From Carpediemonas membranifera BICM (taxonomy: Eukaryota; Protista; Fornicata), in NCBI GenBank assembly GCA_019828565.1, contig JAHDYR010000033.1, positions 155,827 through 219,826 on the forward strand: a DNA stretch of 64,000 nucleotides. The letters are read 5' to 3'. The notes beneath the pieces were generated by a model, which saw nothing but the letters and a program-made list of their open reading frames with translations, was not told where the DNA came from and made no database searches. A program made the position numbers and the translations under genes. Positions 8,731-54,863 of the stretch are shown here, piece after piece (position 1 is the first letter of the stretch; every line of letters begins with the position of its first letter).

Positions 8731-8731
8731 C

Positions 8732-9061: not shown

Positions 9062-9185
9062 TCATCACTGCTTATAGATCCTGGCAGACAACGCCTTCCT
9101 GGCGACGTCTGGGGTGTAAGGATTCGCTTGCCTCTGTGTTGTCGCATCAGCTTCGCTGAAAACGGGTGAACTGACCCGCGCATTC

Positions 9186-9637: not shown

Positions 9638-9964
9638 TTCCCCCAAAAGCTGACTCCTGGACCCCTTGGCCGGAGCTCGCCCGAAGCGTGCCTCGGCTTG
9701 AACTAACGGCAAGAGAGCATAAAATCAGCCCTTTCGAACCGTGTTTTATGCTCTGCTGCAGTTATAGAATTATTCAAAGGGCCCTCTCTTTGCGCTTTTT
9801 TCTGGTTCGTGGGACGAAGTAGGGACGGACAAAAAAGCAGATACGGAAGGTATTGGAGGTAATGAGGCCGCCTAGGTACATAGTTGCCATGTGGATGGTT
9901 TCAGTTTATTACTTTTGGCACTCTATGTCCATTTTTTTATGCTCTCTTGCTGATAGTGCCGAAC

Positions 9965-28059: not shown

Positions 28060-28132
28060 TGGTCCCTGCCAGACTCGAACTGGCATCGCAGGATTCAGAG
28101 TCCTGAGTGCTAACCACTTACACTAAGGGACC
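28060..28132 (-). tRNA. tRNA-Gln (anticodon CTG)
   Basis: GGTCCCT acceptor stem, D-arm, CAGGA-CTCTGAA-TCCTG anticodon arm, GTTCGAG T-loop, T4 downstream. Confidence 0.96.
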
Positions 28133-35777: not shown

Positions 35778-35986
35778 TCTTCTCTTCGTTATATCCCAAT
35801 AATGGACATATAACAGAGATGAGAAAATTGCCAGTAACCGTAGGCAACGGGGTGTCGGAAACGTTATACCATACAAACGGGGGATATAATCGCTCCGAAA
35901 ACATCCATTATGTGGACTGAATGGCGATATAACGTATGGGGAGTGATCCGACGAGCTTTCGGGCGGTGCAGGCTAAGACACACCAA

Positions 35987-36437
35987 GTCTGTGGTGCTAT
36001 AACGTACCTCGGGACGCACTGTGGAGGCCCCTAGAGTACTCGGTCATGGCATGTCAGACCAAGGGTGCCTCAAATCTGGCCCCATTCAGGATGCACCCCC
36101 TAAATGTTCCGTTGCAAGCGTCTGACGGGCGTTCTCTGGATACCGACCAAGATGGAGGTCACGTGGATGAACGGACGATAATTACGGTATTCTGGCCATG
36201 CCTGGTACTCTCAAATCATCTGTACTGCTCTATGCTCCATTTATAGTTCATATCGTTTCGTCCTGATGGACTTTTGGTACTTGATGTTGTTTAGAGATAA
36301 TTGTTGCTTTAATGATGCTCTGCGCCCGCATACTGATGTTTCTTAGTGATATGTGCATGCCTGTATCGTTAAAGCCGCCAGTATTCTTTCTATTCTTAAG
36401 TTCGCCATTTCAGTCTCGTTGCGAGCATAAAGTGCAC
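35987..36437. promoter_or_regulatory. Conserved non-coding core, copy 2 (inverted)
   Basis: Reverse complement of 9186-9637; invariant 37-mer at 36132-36168. Confidence 0.8.
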
Positions 36438-36898
36438 ATTGTGAAAGGAAAGTGGGTGGTTATCTAATGGATACAGGGCAGGACAAGGCACACAAATGCC
36501 GTCCTGAGGTTTGGCATGGGATACTGATCTCATACGACAAAAATGGGCGGTGGTATTCGAATTTCAGAATTTCGGCATGTCCGAATTCCGAGGCAAGCGG
36601 GTAGGGTGTACAAAACCTGGCCTGGGTCCCTACTGGAGCTAATAGATAACAGTATCACCGTGTATTCGTATTCAGAAATATAACTTGTGTTGGTATTGCT
36701 ATTTCAGAATTACTTCCAGTCCAGGAGATTGTCTTAGAATTTGGATGTTCATGACTACTTTAAAAATTTAAAAAGTTCCCATGAACCCACTCCAGCTCAG
36801 GATTGCGGATCTGAGCCAAGTTTAGGTCGAATCCAAGTATTTGATAATTTTGTATGTACGAAATTCTGAAATTGCAATACCAACAGAAAACTCGTGAT

Positions 36899-38260
36899 AT
36901 GGAGGATCTAGCTGCAAATAGCGACGATATTGTTAAGCGCTGGTCTGATAGAGTTTCATTGAAGACGCGTAGTGTGTACAAGAAGCACCTGGAGGACGTT
37001 TTGGCCAGCCTTTGCCAGGAAACAGGCGCTGAAATGCAGAAGGGCATCGAGATTGTCCGAAGCGACAACGTTACGACTTATTTGGCCCATTATTTCGCTA
37101 CAAAGACGCCTGCTATGGCTAAGAGGATCGTTTCGGCTGTTCAGTCTTTCCGGAACTTCGACTTGCCACACCCCGCGAAGCCGTTGTCCTGGAAAGAGGA
37201 GGAAGAGGTGTCGCCTGCATCAGTTGAGAGTCTCCCCAGCCCGTATGGCGCCATTGCCATTCTGATCAACCAGACGGGCTGGGAGTATTCGTATCTCCAA
37301 GGTAATCTCCCCGATGCGATAGACCTTACCTCGTGCCCGAGCTGGATGGGCTTTGGCACGCTCAAATCGGGATTCCCGCAGGCCAGTGCTGTATCGGAGG
37401 CGCTCAAGGTTCAGGGGTTGACGGTTCGCATGCTTCGCTTGTCGCAGCGGATCAACGTGTCCACCGATAGGATGCAGTCTATCGGCACGCTAGAGCGCCG
37501 CGGCAGACCGCGGGAGAAGCCTCAGAAGGTCATTAAGGACAAGCGCATCAGCCTGACCGATGAGCAGTTCAGGCATCAGTTGGCGTCCAGTCACTTAACG
37601 ACCACGCGGCGCCCAACGATCCTCGATCTCAACCCGGAGATCCGAAGCTCTGCCGACCTGGTGCCGCCGACGCTCGATAACTGGCTTTACAACAAGCTCA
37701 GGATTAGGATGGTCCAGCTCCACGACCAGCGTAAGCCCGAGGGGGGCGACACGGGGGAGGGTGAGTCTGACGATGAGGCGCTGTTTGACGAGACAGCTGG
37801 CGAGGCAGAGATGCCGGAGACCGCAGTGGAGGGCGAGTTTGACGATGAGGCCGGGTTGGAGATGCTGGAAGGAGAGTGGGAGGATGAGGAGAGTTCAGAC
37901 AGCGATGCCGAGGATAGCCTCGTCGACAACCTGTCATTTCTTCAGTCACAACAGGTTGAGTGTGATATGTCTGAGAGAGATACCGATGAGGGTGTCCGTA
38001 GCGGGGCCAATGGAAGTGGGCTCGCTCCGCTCTATGACGCTATGAAGACCAGGGTGCCCAGCAGACGCATTCGCCTTCGCCGCTATCACGAGAGCGAGTC
38101 AGACTTGGGCAGCAGCAGCGACAGCGAGGACGGGATGCCGAAGCTGCCCGTTGAGGCCTTTGAGCACATCCGTGATGCCGGGATGACAACTGTGAGGCTG
38201 ACGAGGGCCGAGTATGACGACGTGATGGAGAAGAGAGAGCAGGAAAAGCACCAGAAGTAA
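36899..38260 (+). CDS. Degenerate tyrosine-recombinase-fold protein with AT-hook and acidic tail (unit 2)
   Basis: SLKTRSVYKKHL, VTTYLAHY..TPAMAKRIVSAVQSF (integrase core-binding pattern), AIAILINQTGWE, GLTVRMLR, RRGRPR. Confidence 0.62.
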   Translation: MEDLAANSDDIVKRWSDRVSLKTRSVYKKHLEDVLASLCQETGAEMQKGIEIVRSDNVTTYLAHYFATKTPAMAKRIVSAVQSFRNFDLPHPAKPLSWKEEEEVSPASVESLPSPYGAIAILINQTGWEYSYLQGNLPDAIDLTSCPSWMGFGTLKSGFPQASAVSEALKVQGLTVRMLRLSQRINVSTDRMQSIGTLERRGRPREKPQKVIKDKRISLTDEQFRHQLASSHLTTTRRPTILDLNPEIRSSADLVPPTLDNWLYNKLRIRMVQLHDQRKPEGGDTGEGESDDEALFDETAGEAEMPETAVEGEFDDEAGLEMLEGEWEDEESSDSDAEDSLVDNLSFLQSQQVECDMSERDTDEGVRSGANGSGLAPLYDAMKTRVPSRRIRLRRYHESESDLGSSSDSEDGMPKLPVEAFEHIRDAGMTTVRLTRAEYDDVMEKREQEKHQK

Positions 38261-38760
38261 ATGGCGAGTGATTATCAACTGGATGCAGAGGCTGAGCGGC
38301 GTAACTAGCCTGCCAGGGTCCGTGTACACAGTATGTGTCTTGGCCAAGCTTGACTTCGTCGGTTGGCCGAAAAAGCATAAACTGCACGGGTCCAGGTCGG
38401 CAACGGTTGCCGACCTGGAAGCCGCTCCTTGGGCGTTGAAGAACAGAAGAGAAAGCGATCAGCGATGCTTTTATGCAGTATTAAGCAGGTTGTGCGCGTC
38501 AAATGTCCGGTAATGCATTCGTCACCATCTAATCAACATCAACTCTTTTTCTCGGCAATGCAGAGGAGAATGCCCGTCACTAAAGGATGATTTGGTACTG
38601 AATAAACATTATAATGAGACTGGAATGCTTGTGGACACGAAAACAGCAATGACAACATCGGGAGCAAGACAAGAAGATGATTCAGATTTATGAGGGAGAG
38701 GACGCCAGGGATGACGGCGCCAGGGATGAGGCGCCAGGATGAGGGCGCCAGGATTACCTT

Positions 38761-39695
38761 AAGCTCTGCCGACCTGGTGGCTTTACAAAAAGCTCAGGAT
38801 GAGGATGGTCCAGCTCCACGACCAGCGTAATCCCGATGGGGTCGACACAGGGGAGGGTGAGTCTGACGATGAGGCGCTGTTTGACGAGACAGCTGGCGAG
38901 GCAGAGATGCCGGAGACCGCAGTGGAGGGCGAGTTTGACGATGAGGCCGGGTTGGAGATGCTGGAAGGAGAGTGGGAGGATGAGGAGAGTTCAGACAGCG
39001 ATGCCGAGGATAGCCTCGTCGACAACCTGTCATTTGTTCAGTCACAACAGGTTGAGTGTGATATGTCTGAGAGAGATACCGATGAGGGTGTCCGTAGCGG
39101 GGCCAATGGAAGTGGGCTCGCTCCGCTCTATGACGCTATGAAGACCAGGGTGCCCAGCAGACGCATTCGCCTTCGCCGCTATCACGAGAGCGAGTCAGAC
39201 TTGGGCAGCAGCAGCGACAGCGAGGACGGGATGCCGAAGCTGCCCGTTGAGGCCTTTGAGCACATCCGTGATGCCGGGATGACAACTGTGAGGCTGACGA
39301 GGGCCGAGTATGACGACGTGATGGAGAAGAGAGAGCAGGAAAAGCACCAGAAGTAAATGGCGAGTGATTATCAACTGGATGCAGAGGCTGAGCGGCGTAA
39401 CTAGCCTGCCAGGGTCCGTGTACACAGTATGTGTCTTGGCCAAGCTTGACTTCGTCGGTTGGCCGAAAAAGCATAAACTGCACGGGTCCAGGTCGGCAAC
39501 CGTTGCCGACCTGGAAGCCGCTCCTTGGGCGTTGAAGAACAGAAGAGAAAGCGATCAGCGATGCTTTTATGCAGTATTAAGCAGGTTGTGCGCGTCAAAT
39601 GTCCGGTAATGCATTCGTCACCATCTAATCAACATCAACTCTTTTTCTCGGCAATGCAGAGGAGAATGCCCGTCACTAAAGGATGATTTGGTACT
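38761..39695 (+). repeat. Tandem duplication of the 3' part of the unit-2 YR-like gene and its downstream region (about 37646-38599)
   Basis: Near-identical sequence; duplicated ORFs in the ORF track. Confidence 0.95.
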
Positions 39696-39980: not shown

Positions 39981-41265
39981 TTACTCACTGTTCTGGATCA
40001 CCAATTCGTACGACGAGTAACAGTCGGGACAGAGCCGAATCTTGGGAATCGACTTGCCACAGATGACAATCTTCAGCAGCTCCATCTGTACGCAGTTGGC
40101 AGAGTTACAGAACCAGTGCCCGCACTGCCTACAGTGCACGGCTGAGTCGTTGCGTCGGCATGCGTAACACTTCTTCTCATTGAGGCAATAGCTACACGTG
40201 TATTTCCAGCGACCCTTATTGGACTCGGCCCAGTTCTTGTTCTTTCCAGTCTTAGGCCGGGGAGGGACACAGCGTGAGTTGTCGTGGAAGTTCACTTTGC
40301 ATTCCTGGCAAGTCACAAACTTTGACGTCACGCGATTGTCGATCCAGTCCAGACTGTGGCAATGGCCGCAACAGAAACAAAGCAGCCTATTCTGAATGTC
40401 GAGAATCGAGAAAGAATCATCACCGACCTCAGACACATCGTCATCGTTGTCCCCTTGGCTGGCCAGACGTGCCTCCACGGTGGCGAGCCTCTGATCGACA
40501 CTCATCGCGACACGGTGAACATCGTGCAGCACAATCGACTCGCGAGGCGCTTGAGGGGAAGCTGGAGAGGGAACCGAAGTGGGACCGGACGATGAGTGCA
40601 GGAAAGGCTTCACTTTTCACGCAAAGCTCTTGCTTCACGTGTGTAAGGGCGGGGGTGGCAGGGTTGGGGATTTCAACTGTTCTGCACTTGCCCACAAATC
40701 TCTCCGGGTCATTGATATCGGGCACACAGAGATTAAAGTCTCGGGAGTCGAGATTATCTGGCACAGGAATATTGAGTCTCGACAGGACGGATCTGATCGC
40801 GCTGGTTAGCTCCGAACGGACTGGGCGAGGGAGCTCTTGCAGAGAGCATGGACAACCTTGGGTTTCCCGTCAGATATGGCCACAGTAACCCCCATCGTCT
40901 CAGCCCAATCTCGGACGTTCTTCGCAACAACCCTTCCCATCGAGACGCCAGGTTTCAACTTCAGCTCATCGAGGAAGTCCGGTGTTTCGGAGCACGGCTG
41001 AAGAAACGACACGATGATGTGGTTGAACGCATTTCCGAGCTTTTTTGATGGACAGGCCAGTTGGGTCTGAGTCAAAGACGTCAAACGCAAACGTGAAGAA
41101 GGCCTTAAGCATGCCCATCATGAGAATTGACCGGCAAGTACTCAAAGCGGTTGTGTTCCACTTCGTCATCGGTCTCGATCTCTTAGAAACAGCCTTAACT
41201 GCATGATCGTCCGCCATGTTCTCATTTACGGCCGCGCGCTTCGTTTCTAGCTCCGTTTCTGTCAT
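39981..41265 (-). pseudogene. PHD-finger plus second Zn-finger protein, frameshifted
   Basis: CFCC..CQEC..H...C..CSYC followed by CYAC..CRQC..FC...C..LCPDC; homologous to 51000-52223. Confidence 0.75.
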
Positions 41266-41455
41266 TCCAGAGTAGATTTTCTACTAAAAATTGGCATTGT
41301 TACAACCAATCATTAACATTAATAGAGAAGGAGAATAAAGACTCACCAGCCCGCGGCCAATCGTGACTCAGGTTCGCATCAGACGTCGACAGAGACGAGT
41401 TAAACATGAGGCTGGGCAATTGTCTTCTGAGCTAATCCTTAACCTTTCAAAGAGG

Positions 41456-43980
41456 ATGCTAATACCGAAGTGGACGCTATTACACGGCACTATTTATGCT
41501 CCTCAAGAGGATACTGGCATCAACACCATTCTATGCAGCGTGTACCTTTCCATTGACTCAGATAACGTCAGCACACATCGGTTTCGTGTTTCCAAAGCTC
41601 CCCAACGCCGTGAGTTCGTCCAGGTTGTTCAAGAGTTGCTCAGTGCAGGATATATATGTCGCCAGGATGTTTCAAAGCAGCTGTACCCCTCTCCGACTGC
41701 CACATCTATCGCTGCGGAGAAGAGGAATCACACGACTTACCCAAGAGCCTACGTGAAGCATACATCCGCAGTTGACACTCTCGCAGCCGAGAATGAGTGT
41801 CTACGGAAGCGTCTGGCCGACACGGAGCGCCTGATTCAACTAACGAACCAGCTCAAGTCCATCACAAACGGATACAATGCCGTTAACGACGAGATCCGCA
41901 TAATGAACTCTCTTGCAGGTAGGCTTAACCTTGATATTGTGCGGATATCTCCTGTTACCTCGAAGATCAAGTCTCTCGCGTGTAATATCCAGAATATGGA
42001 GGAGATAGAATCACTTCTCCAATCTGACACCGCTTGGAGGAGATTTATCCGCAGTCACGTTCCCGCCAACATTCAGCACAGGGTAACGGCGAGAAGGTCT
42101 GATCAGGCCAATCAGGAATATGAGCTCGACCTCATCACCCATGTCGAAGCTCCTCTTGATGTTGTACGATCATCTATTCAGGGCGACTCGGCCCATGCAG
42201 AGCACGTTGCAGGAAAGATCGTCGTCTTCTATGACTCAGAGCAGGACCGTGAGACTCACTATAGCATCATGAAAGAGCAAGGCCTCACCCCTCGGATGCA
42301 GACGAGTGCAAGATATACCCATGTATATCATGCATCATTTGATATCATGGAGTATTATCGCCAAGCGGTTGCATTCCCCGTATCGCTGGAGACGTCACGA
42401 TCCGGGCGCAAGAGTGCAGCTCGGACATTAAGACGACAGAGTCATTCCGCTGAGACGGGGACGATCCCACTCGTGTTAGAGGTGTGGGTCGATGCGTGGA
42501 GAGGGCTGACAACCGCTGTTAAGATTCGTTTCCTCGACGACTCCCACAAAGTCTTTCCGTCTGGTGCGACTCCTCCTTTCCGGATTCTTGAATACAACGG
42601 CCCAGAAAGTCTCATCACTGAGCATTTTGCCTTCATTGAACAGTCCATCGAGAGCACACACCGCGAGGTGCTGGAAGTCAGGAACACGGGTCTCCTCTGC
42701 CGAGTAACGCGTGTCTTTATTATCGCTGACCATCCAGCCATGTCCAAGGTTTGCGGGGCACTCATTGGAGGCAATTACCCCTCGCCATTCAGTCCCGTTC
42801 ATTCGAAGAACAAGGGCTGGAGTCCCTTTGGTCGCACCCCGCGCTGCACCTTGGCAGATATCCTGCTGGCGAAGCATAAGTCACAGTTCGACACTATTAT
42901 GGACAGAGAGGCCAAATGGGGATCCTTCTATAACCATCAGAAGAAGTGCATCGCTCCCACTTTGTTTGAGACGTCGACTGCGTCGCTGCCCAGAGACTGC
43001 GTCTTCTTATTCCCTCCAATCATGCATGTCAGTCATGACTTTGTGTCGTTGATTCATGCCATGTGCCGCATGTTCAAGCCAGAGCCAATTGACCCAGAGA
43101 GCGACCCTCGTCAAATTAAGGAGGTGAAGGCAAGGAACGCGATGCTAGCGAATCTGGCGTCGTTTGAGCCACCCAGCCGTACGACGGGCTGCAACGAGCA
43201 AGTCAAGGGGAGAAAGATGATAGCATCGATTGGACTTAAGCTGCATCGTGCGTTCCCGCCACCCCCGTGCAGTCATTATTCATACTCGCTGCATACCTCC
43301 AGGAGCACTACTATTCCCACGAGGATGTAACTGAGAACATGGTCGTGTGGCATCGCTTGACAGCACTTCTCGTGCACCTCTTCTCTGTGACCATGTGTCT
43401 TAGCACATCTAACACGGTTGCCCCAGACATTCCGATCCGTCAACCATCTGCGACTCCCGATACGGCGCCGTGTGTTGATACACTTCACGGATTGGCGCGT
43501 ATTGCCGCGCTGCCGGATATACAAGCGAAGACTCGGGCTTCCTTTGGTCGAGTCATCGAAGAGTGCTTTGAACGTGATTTCATTGGGAATCAGGAGAGTC
43601 GAGTGCGATTGCGTCAGAACCAGACGGTTCTTGAGAGCACTATTCTGAAGGAGCAGGTTGAGTTGCTGTTCAGATGCCTTCGTGGAGTGATTTCCTACGG
43701 AAGACGCGAAACAGATGTCCCACCCCAGTCACCCCTGAAACATATGCGCATTCATAAGTGTTGTAAGGATGCCAATTGGTGGCTTCGTATCCGGAGTGTG
43801 CATTCTAAGACGCTGACAGCGACTGAGTGCCAAAAGCTGCACATGGTGTTTACGAAGGAAGTCAACGGCCTATGGCGCACTGTCTTGTCGAAAGCAGACT
43901 GTACCTTTGACTCAGACTGGCTGTATGTTCCCATTCACGAGCAGGGACACACTCTTGATGTTTGCATATGTAAGAGATAG
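41456..43980 (+). CDS. Candidate DDE transposase (Transib/RAG1/Chapaev/CMC-like), one frameshift near 43262
   Basis: Ordered motifs LEVWVDAW (D1), FIIADHPAMSKVCG..GGNYPSPF (D2 plus degenerate CxxC), PPIMHV, IEECFER (E). Confidence 0.6.
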
Positions 43981-44184
43981 TAAAGATCGGATTTAGTCTC
44001 GCGGTCAATCTCACGTGGCCCAGAGCAGCGTGCTCCTGGAATCAACAGGGCATAAAACACCCTGCGTATTCCGGTAGCACACCGTTCTGACTCATACGTC
44101 CGTCTCTGGTTGTCGTATACAGGTCTATTTACGTGTTTGGCGATGGCGCTCCCTTAAATCTGCTTGAACAGCGTGTCGTGGCTG

Positions 44185-44391
44185 TCAGTATGCTGCAAAT
44201 GTCTCAGCGAGAAAGGAGTCACCAATCGCGTTCAGCTTTCTTGTTTCTCGCCTGATAAGGCTCGTAATATCGTTCAAGCGTGAATCTATGAAGTAATGGG
44301 ACTGAATGGCCTCTATTGCGTCAATTTCTTGCGTAATCGTTGTTGAATGGCCTAGAATAGATGTTGCAGCTGCTTCCAGCTCCTGTTGCAT
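44185..44391 (-). CDS. Small helical hypothetical protein
   Basis: 68-aa ORF with amphipathic pattern; no homologue recognised. Confidence 0.3.
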   Translation of the reverse strand: MQQELEAAATSILGHSTTITQEIDAIEAIQSHYFIDSRLNDITSLIRRETRKLNAIGDSFLAETFAAY

Positions 44392-45130
44392 GCTAAATGC
44401 TGTGTTTTGGACAATTGGTCGTGTTCAGGCAGATTTTTTTCGTGCAAAGTGCAGGCTAATACGCGCCCTTAAACTGTGGGATCAGCCGCTGGGTAAATAT
44501 ACTGAGAAAAAACCATATAGCTGAGTTCACTGTCTTGTGCTGAATACGGTGGCGCCATTTATTTCTCTGAATCGCTAAGTTTTGTCAGCGTTGACCGCGC
44601 ACGACCGGTCGTCCTTACGCGATGTCACCAACACCATCATATTCTTCCCCCTGATATTCTACGTGTCCCCCAGTCTGGATTCGTGGTCTGCAATATTCAC
44701 AGAGATATTCGCCTTCTCTTTCGCGAATTTGACTCTGATCAAGTCGAAAACCGAAAAAACGACCATATCTCGAAATCTACACGTTGGAATCGGTACCAGA
44801 GTGATTTTGCGCATATGTACATCCCGTCAGCAGTCTGCAAAATCACTCTCATACCGATTCCAACGTGTCAATTTTGAGATATTGCTCGTTTCATCGTTTT
44901 GCCTTAACCTGCGTCGCAAAGAAGTCGAAATCAGTGCTTAGACCGCACTGGACCTCTTTACAGGCTCTCTGCATACGCGCTTTAGTATGCAATGAAGGTA
45001 TTCATTTTCCCGTAAATTGTTTAAATTCAATGAATACTTCATTTTCGGTCCGGAAGAAATAGATAATCTAGGTTTTTTAGGCCCTAGATTATCTAGAAAA
45101 AATCGTAGATTATCTACCGACTTTCACAGT

Positions 45131-45954
45131 ATGAGAGGAGTTGATGACATCGATCATCGCTTCTTCATGTTTGTTCACCCAGTGTTGCCCAGGTATTTAC
45201 CCAGATTGGTTGCGATTCGTGACTGCAAGACTGATTCCATCATTTCGGCCTTGTTGCTCACGAAGGAGTCATACAACACCGAAGCTACTGATGAAACCCC
45301 TTCCGAGCTGCGCCAGGACTTATATGTTGTGGTTATTCGCACGGCATTCTATGCCAGGGGCAATGGTCTCGCCACGATTCTTCTTTCGGTTGCCTCTGCC
45401 GGACAGAGGATCCGCCTGCAGTGTGTAAGTTCTCTTGTGCCAGCCTACCAGCGTATGGGGATGTCCATCTCCAAGCAAAAAGTCCACGATGGAGTACCTG
45501 GATGATGCGAAACTGGTGACCATGGAGGCAACATACGGCCCGAACAAGTGGACGAAGCTCGGTGAGAGTCTCGTTGCTTGCCATGGATATGCCATGAAGT
45601 CCTGGAGGGCTCCCCCGTCCGTCGACTACGGTACGGCTTTTCACTTCTGTGGACCAGGTCCAGCCTCCCCCAAAGAGAACCCAAGCCACCCAACCCACCC
45701 TGCCCACCAAGCCCTCGGACAAGCTCAACCGCTACATTAAGCGTCTGAGGAAGAGTGTTACCCCGCACCCGACGCGCAAGAAGCAACGTGAGATAATCAT
45801 CGCCCTTTACGACAGCAACCGAAGGGATTTGGTCCAAAAGATCGTGGATAAGAGATCAAAGATGCGTAAGGATTACCAGAAAGAGAACTATTTCGAGGAA
45901 GAGTGGTACCATCTGCTGTCTGAGAAGGAAGATGAGGAAGAGAATGAAGATTAA
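45131..45954 (+). CDS. GNAT acetyltransferase with basic/acidic C-terminus (two frameshifts)
   Basis: LYVVVIRTAFYARGNGLATILL (motif A R..G.A), LVPAYQRMGM (motif B). Confidence 0.75.
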
Positions 45955-45974
45955 ATGAAGAAGCAGTCGATTTA

Positions 45975-46661
45975 TTACTCATTTGAGTTGACGTTAGCTG
46001 CGTGGAAGAGCAGGAGGCTCGCGTAAACGGGTATACGCAGAACATCACGAGCCTCTGCAGCGGCACGGGCAGCGTTCCTCTTCTCAATCACAGCGGCGAG
46101 GTCCTTGAAGGTCTTCGAGTGCTTCTTGAGGACAAGCTGCGGACGCTCGAAGATGAGCTTAGAGTCCTTGCGGCACACACTCTCCAGAAGGACCTCTCTG
46201 ACCTTGTCGACAGAGATACCAAGCCTCTGGGCGACGAAGGCGTAAGCGCGGGGGCGGACCGACTGAGGGATGCCGTGGAACAGCTCGCGGTACTCACGGA
46301 CAGTTGCCAAGAGAGGGCTGCCATGGTCGACCTCATCTCCTTCGGCGTCCAGGCTGATGAGGGCCCTGAAGCGCTTCTCCTTGGCCTCAGAAGACTCGCC
46401 CTTGTACTGCGCCATGATCTGCTCAATGCTATCGAGAGAACGGAACTCCGCTTCATCCCTAAGATCCTCCGGAACGAATGTGGGGAGGTCATTGGGGCGT
46501 CTGTCAACCACCTCATTGCAAATGCGGTTTCCGGTGGCGACATCGGCAGCGGAGATGCTTCCAGCAGCGTGCTCCTTTTCTAAGTAAGTAGAAATCATTT
46601 CCACAGCGTTTAGACGCTTTCTGCCCTTGCTCTTAGCAGTATTACTCCGTTTCGGAGGCAT
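45975..46661 (-). CDS. Highly diverged positional homologue of the YR-like gene (unit 3)
   Basis: Same position relative to the core; AYAFVAQRLGISVDKVREV resembles ALALIISHTGMTATSARDI; LKKHSKTFKDL resembles LKSVGLSVNQL. Confidence 0.5.
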   Translation of the reverse strand: MPPKRSNTAKSKGRKRLNAVEMISTYLEKEHAAGSISAADVATGNRICNEVVDRRPNDLPTFVPEDLRDEAEFRSLDSIEQIMAQYKGESSEAKEKRFRALISLDAEGDEVDHGSPLLATVREYRELFHGIPQSVRPRAYAFVAQRLGISVDKVREVLLESVCRKDSKLIFERPQLVLKKHSKTFKDLAAVIEKRNAARAAAEARDVLRIPVYASLLLFHAANVNSNE

Positions 46662-46675
46662 AACGTTTCTTCAAG

Positions 46676-47080
46676 GTGCACTTTATGCTCGCAACGAAAT
46701 TAGAAAACCAAACGAAGAAAGGAGAAGAGTATCGATCCTCAAACGCTGGCAAGCATGTGTATATCACTAAAACAACATCATGAGAGCTCTGTGGCCTCGA
46801 ATGGCCTGTAATAGAACCTAAACAACATCAACAATTGTAACTCGTCGAGGAAGCGTTGAGATGAACTATAAACGCGGGAATGGATCAAACAATGGATTTA
46901 AGAGTGGCATACAAGGCCAGAATACCGCAATTATCGTCCGTTGATCCACGTGACCTCCATCTTGGTCGGTATCCAGAGAAAGCCCTTCAGACGCTCGCAA
47001 CACAACATTTAGAAGACTTATCGTGAATGGCTCCTTCCATGATGGACCTTCACCTGGACATGCCATCTCTGACATGTCCA
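46676..47080. promoter_or_regulatory. Conserved non-coding core, copy 3
   Basis: Starts gtgcactttatgctcgcaacg; invariant 37-mer at 46944-46980. Confidence 0.8.
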
Positions 47081-47190
47081 ATGGTCTCCATTGAGCTCGC
47101 ATTCATCCCTCTGAGCATCCGCCCCATGGTCCAATCAGATGCCCAATCAAAATTCTGCACCGAAGTGCCCCGAGGACCTCCTCTGAGTTC

Positions 47191-47355
47191 ATAAGGCTCT
47201 CAGAGCCTTATACACCAATTCGAAATCGTGTATAAGGCTCTCAGAGCCTAATGAATCTCCCGCGCCGTTGCCTACTGATACTGGTCATTTTTCCGCATGG
47301 TTTATTAGGCTCTCAGAGCCTTATGAATTTTTTCATTAGGTCCTGAGAGCCTTAT
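47191..47355. promoter_or_regulatory. Four copies of a 21-bp palindrome (ataaggctctcagagccttat)
   Basis: At 47191, 47232, 47304 and 47335 (last degenerate), ending 4 nt before ATG 47360. Confidence 0.75.
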
Positions 47356-47359
47356 AATC

Positions 47360-48724
47360 ATGCAATCGGTTTTCGACTTCTACATGCTCTTGAAGCGTTC
47401 GAAAACGTTTGGTAAGCAGTTCTTTATCTTCTATGACAGCGCTGAGATTAGTCAGGCCTCATCAAACGCGCAGGAGATGATCAAGTGCTCACTTCTTCGT
47501 AAGTTCCTTCTGCCCGATGACAAGATCCTCACCGCCCTTCTTCGTGATCGTAAGTACTTTCCCCATACCTTTTTACACAGATATTGGCTGGAAAACGCTT
47601 CGCAAGCTCTTCAGGTCGCCTCACCTTATCCTGCACCTAAGAGAAACTGCCGAGGCTCAGCTTGAGCTGATCACGACATCGGCTGAGCTGAAGAAGGTCA
47701 TGGGAGATCATGCCTACGACAGCCTTGTCCAGAAGGTCCGCCGAGAAGTGTCTTCGGATCACGAGCACGACGTTGGAGGTAAGTACTCCAAATAACTCCT
47801 GCTTATTCAGTCCTTTCGCTGCTCCGTGAGCGCATAATGCGCAAGGTGAAGCCAGGAAGGTCGGGGGTCGTCCGTTCGTTCAAGAACAACGCCGAGCCTG
47901 AGCTGTCGGACCCGGTCGACGTGCAGTTCGACCGGATAAGGCACCTGGACGCGCTTCTGATGGACTCTCCCGTCCACAGAAGTACCCTGAGTGGCACATC
48001 GCGCCTCCTGCGCCGCCATCTTGCCGTGGAACACAACGGTGCGATCCGTGATTTGAAGAGGGAGCTTTGGCAAGCCCGGGCCAAGATTGAAAAGCTCGAG
48101 ACGGAGAAGCTTGTGCCCTTGAAGAAGGAGGCTGAGGTCATAGACCTGGATCGGGAGGCTTTGGTGGCCGCAGACCCCAAAGATGACGTCCAGACCATCA
48201 TGGAGAAGACCGCTAAGAAGTTTAAGAACGATACAAGCTCTCTGAAGCGGTCTGAGGTGCCTGGGGATGGCTCATGCATTCTCAGCGCCATGCATCTCAT
48301 CAGGACTGGGTCCCAGCCTACTGTTGGTGAGAAGCTTCAGCTGTACGAGGACATCCGATCCTTCTGTGAGGGCAAGGGGTTCGAGGGCGACCCGTTCTCT
48401 GAGATGCCTGGCTCCCCTTTCCCCTGGGCAGACCATGAGGCCATCCAGGCCAGTGTAGAGCTGAGTCACACTCCGGTAATCATCACCCAGATCGACGAGG
48501 ACCTTACCTGCCTCTGGGTCCACAAAGGTTGGGAAGATTCAGAGTTCTTGCCCATCCAGGATGCGACGCTGGACAAGATCTTAGGTCTTTGTGAGAGCAT
48601 GAAGCTCACTCAGTTCATCGTCATCGAGAATCGTCATGCCTGTGTCTACAGTCTTCCGGACCGCAAGCGCAAGGCAGAGCCCGAGAAGCGTGCTACTCGT
48701 CCGGAGGATGTCACCCGCTCATAA
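47360..48724 (+). CDS. OTU-like protease (unit 3); introns 47550-47580 and 47779-47810
   Basis: Splicing two GTAAGT..CAG introns joins three ORFs in frame; VDVQFDR shared with unit 1; VPGDGSCILSA, W, IVIENRHACVY. Confidence 0.8.
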
Positions 48725-48754
48725 ATGATTGATTGAATTGATATCTCTTCAAGT

Positions 48755-49756
48755 TTATTCACTCTTGCCTTGAGTCATGCGCGCAGTGTGGAAGCGCTTA
48801 CGGGCGGGGTTGGACTTGGTCTTCCGCTTGCGGGGCTGCGGCTTGACCTGCAGTATTTTGAACTGCTCCACCTTTCGAGCGAGGTAGTGAGGGTCATCTA
48901 TGGCGAGACTCTTGAAGCGAGCAATCGGGTGCTCCTCTTCATCGGCCTCAAAGTAGGTCTCGCCATAATCGATGCGCAAGAACTCGCCGCGAACGATGTT
49001 GGCAGTGGCCCTGACCGATATCACTGGCAGGCCATCCACCAAGACGTCCACGAACTCACAGTTGACATCGTCAGGGCTGTGGTTAATCAGGTGGACACCC
49101 GCTGCGGCCGACATGGCATCGACGGCGACCTGACTGTCAGCGAATGACATGCTGTGTAATGGTAATGGAATATGCGAAACAAACACCATCTGGCCGTTGT
49201 TGCTGGCCGTCTCAGCATCGGGAATCAGCTTCCCGAAGTATATGCCGAGACATGTGCCAGCTGAGATATCCTCAGTGGCAATCATGCCTCGGCCGACGCT
49301 CTGCGTCCGATTGAGGGCCGGATGGTCGGGCTCCTGGGTCAGACGGGGGTCGCAACGGGTCTCGGATGAGATCCAGGCCGGAGCAGGAATGGCCTGAAGG
49401 CTTATCTCATCCGAAATCAGCCGCTTGACGTCCTGCAGGTCTGAACCCGGGTAAACATGCGTCCACCTAGGGTGGACGTGCATGACGGACCCCTCGACGG
49501 AGTCCTCCTCGGCTTCAGACGAGCTGGATGAATGGGAAGGCGACTCGGGAGGCGGAGGAGGAGGAGAATCTTGCTCCTTACCATCCTCGGGCGACTCGGG
49601 AGGCGGAGGAGGAGGTGATGCTGCCGTTACAGTCGTTTCCGCAGGACGTTGATCCTGCGGAGAAGCAGATGACTCAAAAGTCTTGTTGGGTGGATTTTGA
49701 GTCCTTCTCTTACCTACCGGTTGCTGCTTCCTTGCGGACATCTTTCTTCTCGCCAT
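48755..49756 (-). CDS. SET-domain lysine methyltransferase
   Basis: GRGMIATEDI..G..LGIYFG, LINHS...NC, VRATANIVRGEFLRIDYG..Y. Confidence 0.92.
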   Translation of the reverse strand: MARRKMSARKQQPVGKRRTQNPPNKTFESSASPQDQRPAETTVTAASPPPPPPESPEDGKEQDSPPPPPPESPSHSSSSSEAEEDSVEGSVMHVHPRWTHVYPGSDLQDVKRLISDEISLQAIPAPAWISSETRCDPRLTQEPDHPALNRTQSVGRGMIATEDISAGTCLGIYFGKLIPDAETASNNGQMVFVSHIPLPLHSMSFADSQVAVDAMSAAAGVHLINHSPDDVNCEFVDVLVDGLPVISVRATANIVRGEFLRIDYGETYFEADEEEHPIARFKSLAIDDPHYLARKVEQFKILQVKPQPRKRKTKSNPARKRFHTARMTQGKSE

Positions 49757-49951
49757 ATCTTCGTTCTCTTTTTTTTTCTCGCAACTCCCGATCCGAAGAA
49801 CAGGCGCATCGCTGATCAGATCCGAACAATACTGCAGTAGCATGCATAAATAGTGTAGCAATGAAGGTATACCTCTTTACTTGGATCAAAAGCTTGTCCT
49901 TTGCTTCAAATCAAAATGTGCCATTCATGAAAAAAAAAAGGCACATTGCAA

Positions 49952-50956
49952 ATGGACGAGAAATACGGAGAATTCGGCACGCGACGCATCAGTAAGGACC
50001 AAGAAGTCTTTGAATGTGTCTGTGGTAAGGTTCAGCTCAGGCGTGGACATCGCGGGATCGGTTTCAAGTCTTCTTCCTCTCACGAGTGTCCTTTTACAAC
50101 AGAGAAGTTGATTAACCGACGGGTGCTAATCACCATCGAGCCGCTGCATGGTTTCGAGACCCCGACTCAGCCCTACCCCGTCTTCCGCGTGGAAAGTCTT
50201 GCCAACTCATCTGGCTATCATTTCAAGCTCAAGACGGCTCTAGAGCTCGTTGATGATGAGTGGCTGACTGCCGTTGCCCGCACCTTTAAGTCTACGTCCC
50301 ATCTGGCCGAGGTACTTGAGGAGTTGGCGTCGCAGTACTCTAACTTCGACACTTACTGGGTGATATCGGGTCATTCTGATACAGAAACGTCGCGTATGAT
50401 CATTGATACGTCTACGAACGAGTTTCTGTATCACCATGATCTGGTCCAGCTCATCCTCAGGTCATTCGAGAGCCCTTCCTTGGTGAGATCGACGCGTGTG
50501 CGTCTGATTTACTTTGCCACCTGCTCCGGACTCGACAGATCTGAGGAGTCTCAGCTGTGCAGTGCTATTTCGACAGCCAAGTACAAGAACACATGCATTA
50601 TCCTCACTCCTGAGAAGGTTCTGGCGCATGAGCTTGTTCTCCAGGACGCCTATTGGCTCTACCGCGTGACATGCCTCGACAATCCTCTTTTCTTTCTGAC
50701 GAAGTACTTCTCTGGCTATCGTTTCGCGCCTGGCTCAGCAGGAAGACGGATTATAGCCAATGGTTCCTTGTCATTTCCCAACGAGGCCAGGGTCATCATG
50801 TCTGAGACTAGCTATGCCCGGCCCATTCCTCTTCCTGAAATGCAAGACATCGTTTCTGATGTCAACGAGTATGACCCGTTAAGAACCGACCAGAGAAGAC
50901 TTATGAATGATCGATACATAAGCATGATGACCCGTGCGCTTGAGAGAGACGTGTAG
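49952..50956 (+). CDS. Clan CD (caspase/CHAT-like) peptidase candidate
   Basis: YWVISGHS and LIYFATCSG with His-Cys spacing typical of the caspase fold. Confidence 0.55.
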   Translation: MDEKYGEFGTRRISKDQEVFECVCGKVQLRRGHRGIGFKSSSSHECPFTTEKLINRRVLITIEPLHGFETPTQPYPVFRVESLANSSGYHFKLKTALELVDDEWLTAVARTFKSTSHLAEVLEELASQYSNFDTYWVISGHSDTETSRMIIDTSTNEFLYHHDLVQLILRSFESPSLVRSTRVRLIYFATCSGLDRSEESQLCSAISTAKYKNTCIILTPEKVLAHELVLQDAYWLYRVTCLDNPLFFLTKYFSGYRFAPGSAGRRIIANGSLSFPNEARVIMSETSYARPIPLPEMQDIVSDVNEYDPLRTDQRRLMNDRYISMMTRALERDV

Positions 50957-50999
50957 TAAACAGATATATATACAATTTATGATCATCTCTCACTAAACA

Positions 51000-52223
51000 C
51001 TAAACAATCGGTCTCATGCCCTCTACTCGCTTATAGACAACCTTACATTTGCTGCAGAGGGGAACGATGTACAACTTGCCATCAATGGTGTACTGCACTT
51101 CCTCAGAGCAATGCTCACAGTACCACCAGTGACAGCCTCGGCAGCAAAGAAGAGTAGAAGCCTGTTCTTCTGCTTTCTTCGTGTTCTTGGATCTTAGGCC
51201 CTTTTTGCACGCCTGGCACTTGTTGCTAGAGCCGGTAATATAGCACGCGGGACAGTAGTCCTTCTTGCCCTTCGTCCTGACACATTGCTCGTGCAGGAAA
51301 CCTTTGCAAGCACAGCATCTCCTGAACGTAGTGCCGTCTGGATTGAAGAACCACTCGGGGGTACCACACACAAGACATCCAAATAGCATTTTGCGCTGAT
51401 GAAGGCTAAGGAAAGTCGTCTTACATGTCTCGGGTTCGGTAGGCGGGTCTCTCACACGGGTCTCTGAGACAACGTCGTTGATCAGGACCTTAATACGGTC
51501 AACAACAGCATCGGACACGTTGTTAGACACCTGCTGCAGATCGTCGTCACCAAGCCTGGGTCGCTTGGCTTCCTCGTCGTCAAAGACGATCTTCTTCCGA
51601 ACCGGCACCGATCGATCTGTCGTTGACTGAGGTGTGTCTGCTTCATCACCAACACCAAGTGAAGACAGTTGCGTAGTCGACCGTATCGGTGGGATCTCTG
51701 CCTTGATCATCGTAGTCGGGGTCGATTTGACCGTTGCCTTTTGCTTGACAGGCTTATATCTCACCCGGTTGATCACAGGCAAGTTCTCAAGGCTGATTGA
51801 GTCGGAAACATCGTTCAGTCCAGCATCTGAGAGAACTTCTGAGAGCATCTGGCGGAACTCGGCATGGCAGGGCTGACTACGGACAGCAATGTGCTGCATG
51901 ACAGAGCCATTGTACTCCGCAGAGGGTCTAACTGCTGTTATAAACGTAGTAACGCCGACAACAGTCGTCCGCCTGACCTGTTCCCGGAGTTCAATTGACT
52001 TGAACCCAGGGCATTCGGCGGCGACCCTGCGCTGGACCTCCAGAAGTACCTTATGGATGTCGCGTGCACTCAAGCCGAGGTCAGTTGCCTCGTCGTCCTC
52101 AAATACTGAAGAAACAACGGCTGTAACAAATGAACGACGGAGATTTGCGAGCTTACTGTTGCCATACTGTCTGATGGGGGGCGTAGCAGCAATAGGTTCT
52201 GGTACAGACACTTCTGAATTCAT
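51000..52223 (-). CDS. PHD-finger plus second Zn-finger protein
   Basis: CLVC..CCAC...HEQC..YCPAC (C4HC3), then CQAC..CRGC..YCEHC..LCSKC. Confidence 0.85.
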   Translation of the reverse strand: MNSEVSVPEPIAATPPIRQYGNSKLANLRRSFVTAVVSSVFEDDEATDLGLSARDIHKVLLEVQRRVAAECPGFKSIELREQVRRTTVVGVTTFITAVRPSAEYNGSVMQHIAVRSQPCHAEFRQMLSEVLSDAGLNDVSDSISLENLPVINRVRYKPVKQKATVKSTPTTMIKAEIPPIRSTTQLSSLGVGDEADTPQSTTDRSVPVRKKIVFDDEEAKRPRLGDDDLQQVSNNVSDAVVDRIKVLINDVVSETRVRDPPTEPETCKTTFLSLHQRKMLFGCLVCGTPEWFFNPDGTTFRRCCACKGFLHEQCVRTKGKKDYCPACYITGSSNKCQACKKGLRSKNTKKAEEQASTLLCCRGCHWWYCEHCSEEVQYTIDGKLYIVPLCSKCKVVYKRVEGMRPIV

Positions 52224-52318
52224 GAGAATTTCTATCCAAGCTGTTTACGTTGTTACATTTGTCTATTTACGTAGACTCCTGGCATTGACAATACCTAAAA
52301 CTGCGACATTTGTCGATC

Positions 52319-52534
52319 ATGATTCGAGCAACTAGCCACCAAAAGGTAGAAACGGTAACGTCAGGGCTCGTGGAAGTTGCCAAAGTACAAGATTCTTACC
52401 AAATAATCCGAAAAACTGCTCAGGGCTTGCGAAAGGAAGAAGAAATCAACAAAAAGGTGAATGACACAGAGTTTCTGCTGCAAGAGATACGCGATTTGTT
52501 TATAGATGCCATACAGACGATGAGGGACAAGTAA
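52319..52534 (+). CDS. Small coiled-coil hypothetical protein
   Basis: 71-aa ORF divergent from the PHD gene. Confidence 0.4.
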   Translation: MIRATSHQKVETVTSGLVEVAKVQDSYQIIRKTAQGLRKEEEINKKVNDTEFLLQEIRDLFIDAIQTMRDK

Positions 52535-52619
52535 AAATGACATTCACTAGCTTTGCTTCTCATTTCACATATTCTTGTGAAATATGTGAAATGTGAAACA
52601 GATTCTAGTGAATCTCATT

Positions 52620-54863
52620 TTTTCTTGCACTTTTTGGAGTATCTCCAGGGTATCTCCCGGGAGACTCTAGCCATTCTTACAGTATGAGAGCAGGAATTTC
52701 TGGGAGCCGTCGTCAATTCAAGAGAGATGTGCATCAAACTCACCGAAGCCAAGCGCAAGAAGTACAAGAACGCCGTGGACAACATTTTAAGAGAAAGAAG
52801 GTTCTTTATAAGCGAACTAAGCCGGCTGGTCGGAAGACTGACCTTCACCAAGGTGTGCTGCGGCACAACAGCGCTCATCAGGGTCAGGGAGCTCTGCATC
52901 GCCGCACAAGGTCTCAAGAGGAGCAAGAACCCCAGAGCCACTCGAGGATGCCTCTCAGAGGCAGCGATAGCGGACCTTCAGTGGTGGAGCCGCAAGCTGG
53001 AGACGATCCCGAGCTGCCCGATCAGACCACCCAGGAGCGCCACAATAAGGGTCGAGAGCGACGCATCAGACGAGGCGGCCGGGGCCATCGTGTTCCGGGG
53101 ACCGGCGCTGGCCAGGTCGTGGTCACGCCAGTGGACGAAGGACGAGCTGAAGATGTCAATCAACGCGAGGGAATCTTTGGCGGCCATGGAGGCAATCATG
53201 GCCATGCTGCAGACGGAGGACTCGGCCGTCATACTGCTCACGACCGACAACATCTCGGCCCGCAAATGGGTGGCGAAGAGCGGCACGAGGGCGCCCAAGC
53301 AAGTACGAGCGCTCGCCCGGGCATTCGGAGATTGGTTAGACCAGCACAAGCACAAGCTCATCGTCAGATACCAGCCAGGGCCACTGAACTGGCAGGCCGA
53401 CAGAATATCCAGACCGAGATCCTTCCAAGTCGGGCACTTTATCCCGACAGAGGTACTGCTGGCAGCGTCATGGAGATGGGGTGCAGTGGAAGAAGACTTG
53501 TCAGAGCAGCAGCTGGAGCCGCTCACGGAGGAGTTGAGAGGACGGCGACTGCTCCTATGCCCCAAGTTACAGGCTCCTCGGCAGATACACACAGAGACTG
53601 GCCGAGATCGCACGCAACACAGAGACCCCACCAGCACTTCAGGACAGCGGAGTCATGTTAGTAACGGTCAAGGTCCGCAACAACCACCAGCTCACACTCA
53701 GGAAGATCGCCCAGAAGTCAGTCGTGGTCAGCGTGAACAGAGAGGAGTGCCCGCAGGAGTGGCGTGCCCTCTCATGGAACAGATGGAAGATACAGCTGGT
53801 CGCATATTGGATCGCGACCTGAGGGCAGCGGGCGTCAACATTGGCAGGATTAGCACAGCATCAGCCGCAACAAGGAGAGATCGCGATATCCACGTGGACA
53901 GGACGGTGCAGAGCCGAGTGAACACCGCTCTCTGCCTGGTCAAGTACTCCCAAGCCGTGAAGGACGACATCGCCCGCGAGACAACAGCCTACCTCACCTA
54001 TGCCCGCGGTGCACGAGAGAGACCCAGCCTGCCGCCCGCCCTGGAGAAGCTGTGGGTCGTGATTAGCCTGCATGGAGACCTCTTATGGAACTATATGATG
54101 ATTGAGGGCCAATACTGTGCGGGTGCGAGGGTCTCGACTAAATTCTCACGGATCTGTAAAGGTCTGGGGGCAATTGGTCAACCAAGAGGTCTGCACGCAG
54201 AGGACCAAGACGTGATAAGGGCAATAGCGAAGGCGGCCAGCAGCACTAGGGGAGCACTCGAGAGGAAGCAAGGCAGAGCACTGCCCATTGAGTGGAGGTG
54301 GATAGAGCGAAGTATCCGATCGTATGAACGATGCAAGCACACCCCACACCTGGTCCAAGCTGTGACAATAGCTCTGCTGGCATTCACGACAGTCTCGCGG
54401 CTGGGGGAGGTCCTAGCGCTCAGGCGTGAGGACGTTCTACAGGTCGACGGGGCGATAGTACTGCGCTTTAGGACGACTAAGACCAGACAGAATGTGCTCA
54501 AGGCGGTACCGAGAACGAAGACGGAGACATGCCCGACAAGGTGGCTCGTGGAGCACCTCAAGTCGGTACGAGATGGACCGCTCTGGCGCGAGTCTGTGGC
54601 CGACGGCAAGCCGATCGCAAGAGCCCCTGGCCGGGACCCAGGCGAGGAGGTGGGAGGTGATCGAAGATCTCCGCGAGCTGTTACACCTGGACATTTCTGG
54701 CCATTCATTCAGAAGGGGCGGCGTAGTCGAACTCGTCAGAAGAGGAACACCATTGACAATAATTCAAGCGTTAGGTACCTGGAAGTCGAGTGAGTCAGTA
54801 TTAGCATATTGTGAGGAGGCGATACGTCTGGCCCCGGAGATCGCCCAGCTGACCATGGGCTAA
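52620..54863 (+). mobile_element. DIRS/Ngaro-type YR retrotransposon remnant H (RT C-terminus, RNase H, YR)
   Basis: EFLG, ESDASD, INARESLA, TTDN, QADRISR; VSRLGEVLAL, GHSFRRGG, LGTWKS..LAY. Confidence 0.92.

What the first reader, a model, noticed from the sequence alone, without database searches (positions are those of the whole stretch)
39981..52534. Compact chromatin writer/reader/eraser cluster next to a candidate DDE transposase
Seen: in about 12.5 kb lie PHD, transposase-like, GNAT, YR-like, OTU, SET, caspase-like, PHD and small ORFs, with several convergent gaps of only about 20-45 bp. Known: GNAT, SET, PHD and OTU domains write, read or erase histone marks; some transposons carry anti-silencing factors (VANC in VANDAL; TET/JBP beside KDZ/Plavaka). 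Inference: a large DNA transposon or virus-derived element that carries a full chromatin toolkit to escape or redirect silencing. No capsid, polB or packaging ATPase is visible.
Basis: partly seen in the sequence, partly recalled or inferred. Interest (0 to 1): 0.88.

Follow-up and report, generated by a model that had tools for sequence, protein, structure and literature searches.

The report
RAG1-like transposon carrying chromatin enzymes
This is a multi-copy jumping-gene family in a single-celled protist (likely Carpediemonas) whose transposase is predicted to fold like our antibody-gene shuffling enzyme RAG1, and which carries genes for likely histone-marking, mark-reading and protein-cutting proteins that it probably uses to keep itself active in the host's chromosomes.

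Summary
The cluster is real and is transposon cargo. The transposase has 16 relatives, and its model matches RAG1, ProtoRAG, P and Transib transposases. A separate assembly holds a complete 11,629-bp relative (L001) whose transposase is 25% identical. It has 71-bp inverted ends (5'-CATACTG) and a 2-bp target duplication, and sits inside a Gypsy pol gene. It carries homologues of the caspase-like, PHD and SET genes and an OTU-like gene. The window's genes recur at 90% identity or more in records named Carpediemonas membranifera. The window is probably two joined elements: matching ends at 45133 and 52686 cut a GNAT gene and a DIRS gene, and no left ends were found. SET passes Pfam; PHD and caspase-like are supported below family cut-offs; OTU and GNAT are weak; 'YR-like' is unsupported. 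No viral link was found. The zinc motifs that define the CMCT clade are not conserved, so this looks like a new CMCT-like lineage. Chromatin self-protection is inferred, not shown (about 55%).

The parts
39981..40830 (-). PHD + FYVE-like double zinc-finger gene (element A); a 288-aa version exists elsewhere, the window copy has a frame break near 40610
   Evidence: SW z 19 to the L001 PHD gene
40966..41265 (-). 99-aa ORF, no family, not found as an exact protein record; may not be a gene
41456..43980 (+). DDE transposase with predicted RAG1/Transib fold (conserved D346, D425, E701/E702/E705 in P0002 numbering); frame break at about 43264 in a C run; an intact 840-aa copy exists elsewhere (P0019)
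44127..44428 (-). 3' end of a probably polyadenylated transcript from a related copy (13 differences); no ORF assigned
   Evidence: X3 contig with an oligo-T loose end
44748..44900 (.). Subterminal hairpin of element A
45060..45133 (-). Inferred right end of element A (reads 5'-CATACTG inward from 45133), 74% like a left-type end at 59196; partner end not found
45134..45954 (+). GNAT-like acetyltransferase gene (element B); begins at the element-A end, so likely 5'-truncated; two further frame breaks beside short A and C runs
   Evidence: no longer homologue found
45975..46661 (-).
46672..47090 (.). Non-coding spacer shared (72-92%) with 35987-36441 and 9188-9636, each between a divergent gene pair
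47188..47357 (.). Four near-palindromic 25-nt repeats just upstream of the OTU-like gene; candidate binding sites
   Evidence: 7 matches on both strands; 0 of 100 shuffles reach 7
47360..48724 (+). OTU-like cysteine protease gene, 433 aa with two short introns (47550-47580 predicted; 47779-47810 seen spliced)
48755..49843 (-). Stand-alone SET lysine methyltransferase with NHS and DYG motifs; predicted 33-nt intron; a related copy is covered by a probable RNA contig
49952..50956 (+). Caspase/CHAT-like protease, His141-Cys191; at least 8 gene positions at 90% identity or more; three paralogue families
51000..52223 (-). PHD + FYVE-like double zinc-finger gene (element B), 407 aa; at least 9 gene positions at 90% identity or more
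52319..52534 (+). 71-aa ORF, no family; covered by a probable RNA contig from a related copy
52528..52686 (-). Subterminal hairpin and right end of element B (5'-CATACTG inward from 52686); a DIRS reverse-transcriptase fragment starts at the next base; an X4 contig stops at 52686
34049..39356 (.). Second OTU-like gene (minus strand, 3' end cut next to a Gypsy LTR) and divergent 468-aa gene with a tandem partial duplicate; probably the left part of element A or B

Best explanation
The cluster is the internal cargo of large cut-and-paste DNA transposons whose transposase is predicted to have the RAG1/Transib fold, and the cargo likely keeps the element's own chromatin active. SHOWN: a transposase family with conserved acidic residues; a complete 11.6-kb relative with inverted 5'-CATACTG ends and a 2-bp target duplication; caspase-like, PHD and SET homologues kept between elements whose transposases are 25% identical; many near-identical copies; splicing of the OTU-like gene. 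INFERRED anatomy: element A (PHD, transposase, end at 45133) has inserted into or abuts the GNAT gene of element B (GNAT, 228-aa protein, OTU, SET, caspase-like, PHD, end at 52686), and both left ends are lost or lie outside the window. INFERRED mechanism: the transposase binds the ends, excises by RAG/Transib-type chemistry and reinserts. The double zinc-finger protein would read a histone mark, and the 228-aa protein may bind the palindromic repeats. These would bring SET (lysine methylation), GNAT (acetylation) and OTU (ubiquitin removal) to element chromatin. The caspase-like protease would process these proteins or cut a host repressor. Odds: transposon with conserved cargo about 0.92; cargo acts mainly on chromatin about 0.55-0.6.
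For: Fold: Foldseek RAG1 E 2.6e-8; VIA Z 14.4 (rmsd 5.7, 440 aligned) RAG, 13.5 ProtoRAG, 12.9 P element, 10.4 Transib, next rows 7.5. L001: 66 of 71 terminal bases match; of duplication lengths 1-10 only 2 is a true duplicate, and it restores the interrupted Gypsy pol frame. Window versus L001: caspase-like z 40, PHD z 19 and 9, SET z 10, each 0 of 300 shuffles. Copies: 5 transposase records at 90% identity or more, 8 caspase-like and 9 PHD gene positions, window included. 4 of 10 named transposase records lie within 7 accession numbers of a cargo homologue and 5 of 10 within 12; uniform-null means are 0.38 and 0.62. The ends at 45133 and 52686 fall where other ORFs are cut, and a contig of run X4 stops at 52686. 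A 32-nt GT..AG intron is spliced in X1/X2 contigs. SET genes on Harbinger and MuDR transposons and VANDAL anti-silencing proteins are described (PMC12730594, introduction).
Against: No biochemical or chromatin data. OTU (E 0.021) and GNAT (E 0.11) are weak calls, and the window's OTU is not significantly similar to that of L001 (102 of 300 shuffles reach it). L001 has no GNAT-like ORF, its SET lacks the NHS motif, and its 292-aa protein is not detectably related to the 228-aa one. None of 5 located near-identical caspase-like records lies within 60 accessions of a listed transposase (nearest 69), so element B's own transposase is unidentified. The co-location null ignores clustering of repeats. 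CATACTG occurs 16 times in the window, mostly by chance, and no left ends were found. The target duplication rests on one locus. PRC2's E(z) was reported absent from all metamonads studied (bioRxiv 2021.07.16.452543, passages), so the silencing to be countered is undefined. The SET's best matches include bacterial effector-type SETs, which also fits general host manipulation.
Confidence: 0.58

Rival explanations
1. Same transposon family, but the cargo mainly protects and tunes the transposition machinery or disarms host stress responses through non-histone targets. OTU would rescue the transposase from degradation, the caspase-like protease would cut host proteins, SET and GNAT would modify non-histone proteins, and PHD would steer insertion.
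For: The caspase-like protease is the best-conserved cargo and is the one most often near a transposase (4 of the 5 close pairs), and it is not a chromatin enzyme. OTU-like proteases occur on Helentrons (PMC6431247 passage). The L001 SET lacks NHS. The second zinc finger is FYVE-like.
Against: SET and a PHD-type finger recur together in distant elements, and the window SET's closest eukaryotic matches are histone methyltransferases (KMT5A, KMT2A, ASH1L).
Confidence: 0.3
2. The genes are passively captured host fragments (Pack-type cargo) or a chance pile-up of unrelated repeats, with no role for the element.
For: The window is a nest of insertions. Several genes have frame breaks. Gene order differs between the window and L001.
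Against: Homologous long ORFs lie inside one pair of ends in L001. The His-Cys pair and zinc ligands are kept at 25-28% identity. Intact copies exist elsewhere. Three of the four breaks sit beside short single-base runs, as sequencing errors would.
Confidence: 0.07
3. The block is an endogenous virus or Polinton-like element that borrowed a DDE transposase.
For: OTU, SET and proteases occur in viruses (own knowledge). Two of the top OTU hits are L-protein fragments. Teratorn is a precedent (PMC6431247 passage).
Against: The complete L001 element has seven main ORFs and no Pfam hit to a polymerase, capsid or ATPase. Two scans of viral contigs found no relative. The transposase model has 0 viral matches at E 0.001. 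The genes have short spliceosomal introns.
Confidence: 0.03

Closest known systems
CMCT clade (EnSpm/CACTA, Mirage, Chapaev, Transib, Plavaka, ESTA, Lanisha; PMC12730594)
   Same: DDE transposase of RAG1/Transib type, 5'-CA..TG-3' ends, target duplication within 2-5 bp; some members carry an epigenetic enzyme (TET/JBP); 16-20 kb EnSpm elements with 4-5 ORFs are known in Chondrus (PMC6431247).
   Different: C(2)C and H(3-4)H motifs not conserved; ends are CATAC, not CAC (EnSpm) or CATCA (PlavakaB); no Pfam transposase hit for any of 18 members; cargo is SET, PHD/FYVE, caspase-like, OTU-like and GNAT-like.
RAG1 / ProtoRAG (RAGL) transposons
   Same: Best structural matches of the transposase; RAG works with a PHD-bearing partner, RAG2.
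   Different: About 10% identity; no kelch-type RAG2-like gene; 2-bp rather than 5-bp duplication (5 bp recalled); many more cargo genes.
HarbingerS and oomycete MuDR elements with SET genes; VANDAL/VANC
   Same: DNA transposons carrying a histone methyltransferase or an anti-silencing protein (PMC12730594 introduction).
   Different: Different transposase superfamilies; described with one such factor, not a reader, writer and protease set. The Repbase Reports originals could not be read.
Helentrons with OTU; EpiLTR and DAM retrotransposons
   Same: Mobile elements with an OTU protease or several epigenetic modules (PMC6431247; bioRxiv 2026.05.21.726589).
   Different: Rolling-circle or RNA-based movement; DNA-methylation modules rather than histone-type ones.

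Membership tests
CMCT clade | DDE transposase related to RAG1/Transib | tested here: met
   (fold); D346 17 of 17, E705 15 of 15 rows with a letter; D425 14 of 14. Matching these to the catalytic triad is by motif, with RAG1 motifs recalled.
CMCT clade | 5'-CA..TG-3' termini with inverted repeats | tested here: met
   L001 2171-13799, 66 of 71 bases; same start in L002
CMCT clade | 2-5 bp target duplication | tested here: met
   2 bp at one locus. An end one base longer with no duplication also fits L001, but L002 and three window ends have another base there.
CMCT clade | C(2)C motif after the second Asp | tested here: not met
   First Cys in 7 of 15 rows, Cys three places on in 2 of 16; the window's enzyme has neither
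CMCT clade | H(3-4)H motif before the last Glu | tested here: not met
   One His in 10 of 16 rows at 679 and no second His; H524/H527 are spaced H(2)H
CMCT clade | Placement among CMCT transposases in a tree | not testable with these tools
   No reference transposase sequences on hand; the tree has no outgroup
Transib / RAGL | 5-bp duplication and CAC ends (recalled) | tested here: not met
RAGL | RAG2-like kelch plus PHD gene | tested here: not met
   PHD genes of 288-426 aa without a kelch hit
PlavakaB | 5'-CATCA..TGATG-3' ends (PMC12730594) | tested here: not met
   Ends are CATAC; the 2-bp duplication would fit
P element | 7-8 bp duplication (recalled) | tested here: not met
   the fold is shared (Z 12.9)
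Polinton / endogenous virus | Family B polymerase, capsid, packaging ATPase | tested here: not met
   None among the seven main ORFs of the complete L001 element or the window ORFs scanned
SET methyltransferase | Pfam SET above cut-off with NHS and DYG motifs | tested here: met
   the L001 homologue lacks NHS
SET methyltransferase | Methylates a histone lysine | not testable with these tools
   Needs an assay
PHD finger | Cys4-His-Cys3 ligand pattern | tested here: met
   Invariant in 3 of 3; Pfam PHD only E 0.014 in L001; that the top PDB hit 1wev is a PHD finger is recalled
PHD finger | Binds a histone H3 tail | not testable with these tools
   Needs an assay
OTU deubiquitinase | Cys and His motifs and OTU fold | tested here: inconclusive
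   Cys motif in 4 of 5 domains, His in 5 of 5; best PDB hit OTUD3 E 0.021; no Pfam OTU hit; not folded
Caspase/CHAT protease | His-Cys dyad on a caspase-type fold | tested here: met
   model pLDDT 52; VIA Z 8.3 is tied with unrelated folds; Atlas 0.91 to a cluster with DUF6642 on 23% of members
GNAT | Acetyl-CoA motif and GNAT fold | tested here: inconclusive
   Motif aligns to one GNAT structure at E 0.11; not folded
Tyrosine recombinase | Catalytic domain match | tested here: not met
   No family hit for the 228-aa ORF; Atlas rows are under the bar on a poor model

The most novel reading that the evidence does not exclude
An undescribed superfamily-level lineage of RAG1-fold transposons, old in fornicate protists, that keeps a modular reader-writer-eraser-protease kit (PHD/FYVE, SET, OTU, caspase-like, sometimes GNAT) to set its own chromatin state. 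A PHD partner may license or steer the transposase, an independent parallel to the capture of RAG2.
Probability: 0.4. Interest if true: 0.92.

Novelty: new variant of a known kind. Interest (0 to 1): 0.8.

Why it matters
In the papers read here, DNA transposons that counter silencing carry one such factor. This family keeps several predicted chromatin-type and protease genes across elements whose transposases are only 25% identical, so the kit looks old and selected. It widens the RAG1/Transib structural family to a deep eukaryote lineage, with 2-bp duplications and without the clade's zinc motifs. It offers compact enzymes whose substrates could show how metamonads, reported to lack PRC2's catalytic subunit, silence repeats. 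These elements also sit unrecognised among 'hypothetical proteins' in a published genome.

Tried and rejected
No whole genome was available, so copies were mapped only through record names and accession order. Sequence searches gave no transposase family: Pfam on 18 members and a PDB profile search. 'YR-like' was rejected; the 228-aa, 468-aa and L001 292-aa proteins are not detectably related. A conserved ORF in the shared spacer was rejected as a gene (8 synonymous against 26 non-synonymous codon changes); Rfam found only a tRNA in the window. Viral scans were empty (fold). The one bacterial hit, L003, is 30 aa long and was treated as chance. No longer GNAT homologue was found (weak evidence), so its truncation rests on position alone. 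A search for left ends found none. A predicted complex of transposase and PHD protein gave no answer (score 0.00, alignments not used); it is no evidence either way. No RNA holder is on record as RNA. X1-X3 showed no contig over the transposase, GNAT, caspase-like or PHD genes, which is no evidence. A hairpin motif shared by the two right ends is only suggestive. P0018 in the transposase cluster looks unrelated and was dropped. P0021 was dropped from the co-location count as possibly the window's own gene model. The transposase tree has no outgroup and shows only deep divergence. Three look-ups of earlier findings returned nothing.
Full report
Setting. The window is eukaryotic and dense in repeats: Gypsy, DIRS and other retroelement genes surround the cluster. 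Proteins near-identical to those of the cluster are labelled Carpediemonas membranifera, so the host is likely this free-living metamonad. No whole genome was held.

Observation. The ORFs and the three tight convergent gaps (20, 30, 43 bp) are as reported. Of the 14 cluster-region ORFs scanned, only SET passes a Pfam cut-off. The two cysteine-rich ORFs are paralogues with a PHD-type finger and a FYVE-like finger. The 334-aa ORF has a His-Cys pair invariant in 4 of 4 aligned proteins, and its weak model (pLDDT 52) matches caspase-4 and CHAT best; in the wider search CHAT ties with unrelated folds. OTU and GNAT rest on motifs and weak top hits, E 0.021 and 0.11. The 'YR-like' ORF has no recombinase signal.

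Transposase. A search of 1.84 billion representatives gave 16 relatives, with invariant D346, D425, H524 and E701/E702/E705 among rows that have a letter. The model (pLDDT 74.6) matches RAG1 (Foldseek E 2.6e-8; the first 36 listed rows are RAG1, ProtoRAG or Transib). In the wide search the Z-scores are 14.4 RAG (rmsd 5.7, 440 aligned), 13.5 ProtoRAG, 12.9 P element and 10.4 Transib, against 7.5 for the next rows. The C(2)C and H(3-4)H motifs that PMC12730594 gives for the CMCT clade are not conserved. The window copy has one frame break in a C run; an intact 840-aa copy exists elsewhere.

A complete relative. A scan of metagenome contigs gave 2 loci from 72 candidate stretches. L001 holds an 11,629-bp element inside a Gypsy pol gene. 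Its ends match at 66 of 71 bases and start 5'-CATACTG. Of duplication lengths 1-10 only 2 bp is a true duplicate, and it restores the pol frame. Inside lie the transposase (25% identical), an ORF with two OTU-like domains, a small ORF, a caspase-like gene, a 292-aa gene, a SET-like gene and a PHD gene. Against the window, caspase-like (z 40), PHD (z 19 and 9) and SET (z 10) beat all 300 shuffles. The window's OTU, 228-aa and 71-aa proteins do not (102, 66 and 42 of 300); a paralogous OTU-like gene at 10110-11714 nearly does (1 of 300). L001 has no GNAT-like ORF, and its SET lacks NHS. L002 shows the same end upstream of another transposase.

Copies in the host. At 90% identity or more there are 5 transposase records, 8 caspase-like and 9 PHD gene positions, the window's own included, plus more distant families. 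By accession order, 4 of 10 transposase records lie within 7 entries of a cargo homologue and 5 of 10 within 12 (uniform null 0.38 and 0.62; one record dropped as possibly the window's own; records with hidden accessions could not be used; the null ignores repeat clustering). Against a single element: none of the 5 located near-identical caspase-like records has a listed transposase within 60 entries.

Anatomy here. CATACTG occurs 16 times in the window, so the word alone proves little. Two occurrences stand out. At 45133 the GNAT frame begins at the next base, and the end resembles another at 59196 (20 of 33 further bases; mean of 120 pairs 8.5). At 52686 a DIRS reverse-transcriptase fragment begins at the next base and a contig of run X4 stops. 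Both have a hairpin just inside. I read this as element A (PHD, transposase) ending at 45133 and element B (GNAT to small ORF) ending at 52686. No left ends were found. The OTU-like and 468-aa gene pair at 34049-39356 shares a spacer with element B and probably belongs to one of them: its OTU relatives lie beside either PHD family in other records.

Expression. Contigs of X1 and X2 (nearly the same contigs, counted once; RNA status guessed by the tool) skip a 32-nt GT..AG intron of the OTU-like gene. They also cover the 228-aa, SET and 71-aa genes, partly from other copies.

Mechanism. Movement by cut-and-paste follows from the fold, ends and duplication; hairpin chemistry is inferred from RAG and Transib (own knowledge). 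The cargo's job is inferred. A PHD-type reader and a SET writer kept together over this distance, with OTU-like and sometimes GNAT-like genes, fit best with the element setting its own chromatin state (about 0.55-0.6). The main rival is action on non-histone targets (0.3): the protease is the best-kept cargo. Passive capture (0.07) and viral origin (0.03) fit poorly.

Literature. PMC12730594 (part 1 of 7, passages, supplement search with 0 hits) defines CMCT and cites SET genes on HarbingerS and MuDR. PMC6431247 (passages) notes enlarged EnSpm elements and Helentron OTUs. PMC8516963 (passages) has 0 occurrences of 'transpos' in its main text; its supplements were not read and may list repeats. 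bioRxiv 2021.07.16.452543 and 2026.05.21.726589 were read as passages; their supplements are closed. PMC11316075 (passages) gave nothing relevant. Searches listed no description of this family; most listed papers were seen as titles and abstract openings only, and Repbase Reports and subscription journals are not covered.

Verdict. A real transposon family, apparently undescribed. It works like CMCT/RAG-type elements but is not filed as a CMCT member because two defining motifs fail. Novelty: new variant of a known kind. Interest 0.8.

Noticed in passing
window 7417-11714 and 34049-39356: Two more divergent pairs of an OTU-like gene and a 440-470-aa gene of no family, sharing a 420-450-nt spacer with 46672-47090; a 27-nt stretch is identical in all three copies.
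   Followed up: partly
window 13285 and 59196: Further left-type CATACTG ends; 13285 begins like the L001 and L002 ends, 59196 like the 45133 end.
   Followed up: partly
window 56809-57474: Dam-like adenine methyltransferase ORF (E 6e-4) overlapping a long ORF at 55764-58352 that I take to be DIRS-like; a Carpediemonadida DAM clade is reported in bioRxiv 2026.05.21.726589.
   Followed up: partly
L001 5274-5329, 9651-9695, 11707-11762: A 45-56-nt non-coding repeat lies in three intergenic gaps of the element; candidate shared cis-signal.
   Followed up: no
window 4385-4921, 12489-12533, 38693-38754: A short-unit satellite with very high contig depth in X1/X2; a similar repeat interrupts transposase record P0004.
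   Followed up: no
window 18660-21000; L001 677-2218: Gypsy elements with chromodomains: another chromatin reader on mobile DNA in these hosts.
   Followed up: no
transposase residues 183-287 (model ma2b5a58680c3): An RRM/ACT-like ferredoxin-fold subdomain fills the lower rows of the structure search.
   Followed up: no
P0001, P0048: Gene models that join a caspase-like paralogue to a SET gene or a HEPN-labelled region; probably prediction chimeras across element fragments.
   Followed up: partly
window 28060-28132: tRNA-Gln gene on the minus strand between a DIRS fragment and a Gypsy LTR.
   Followed up: no
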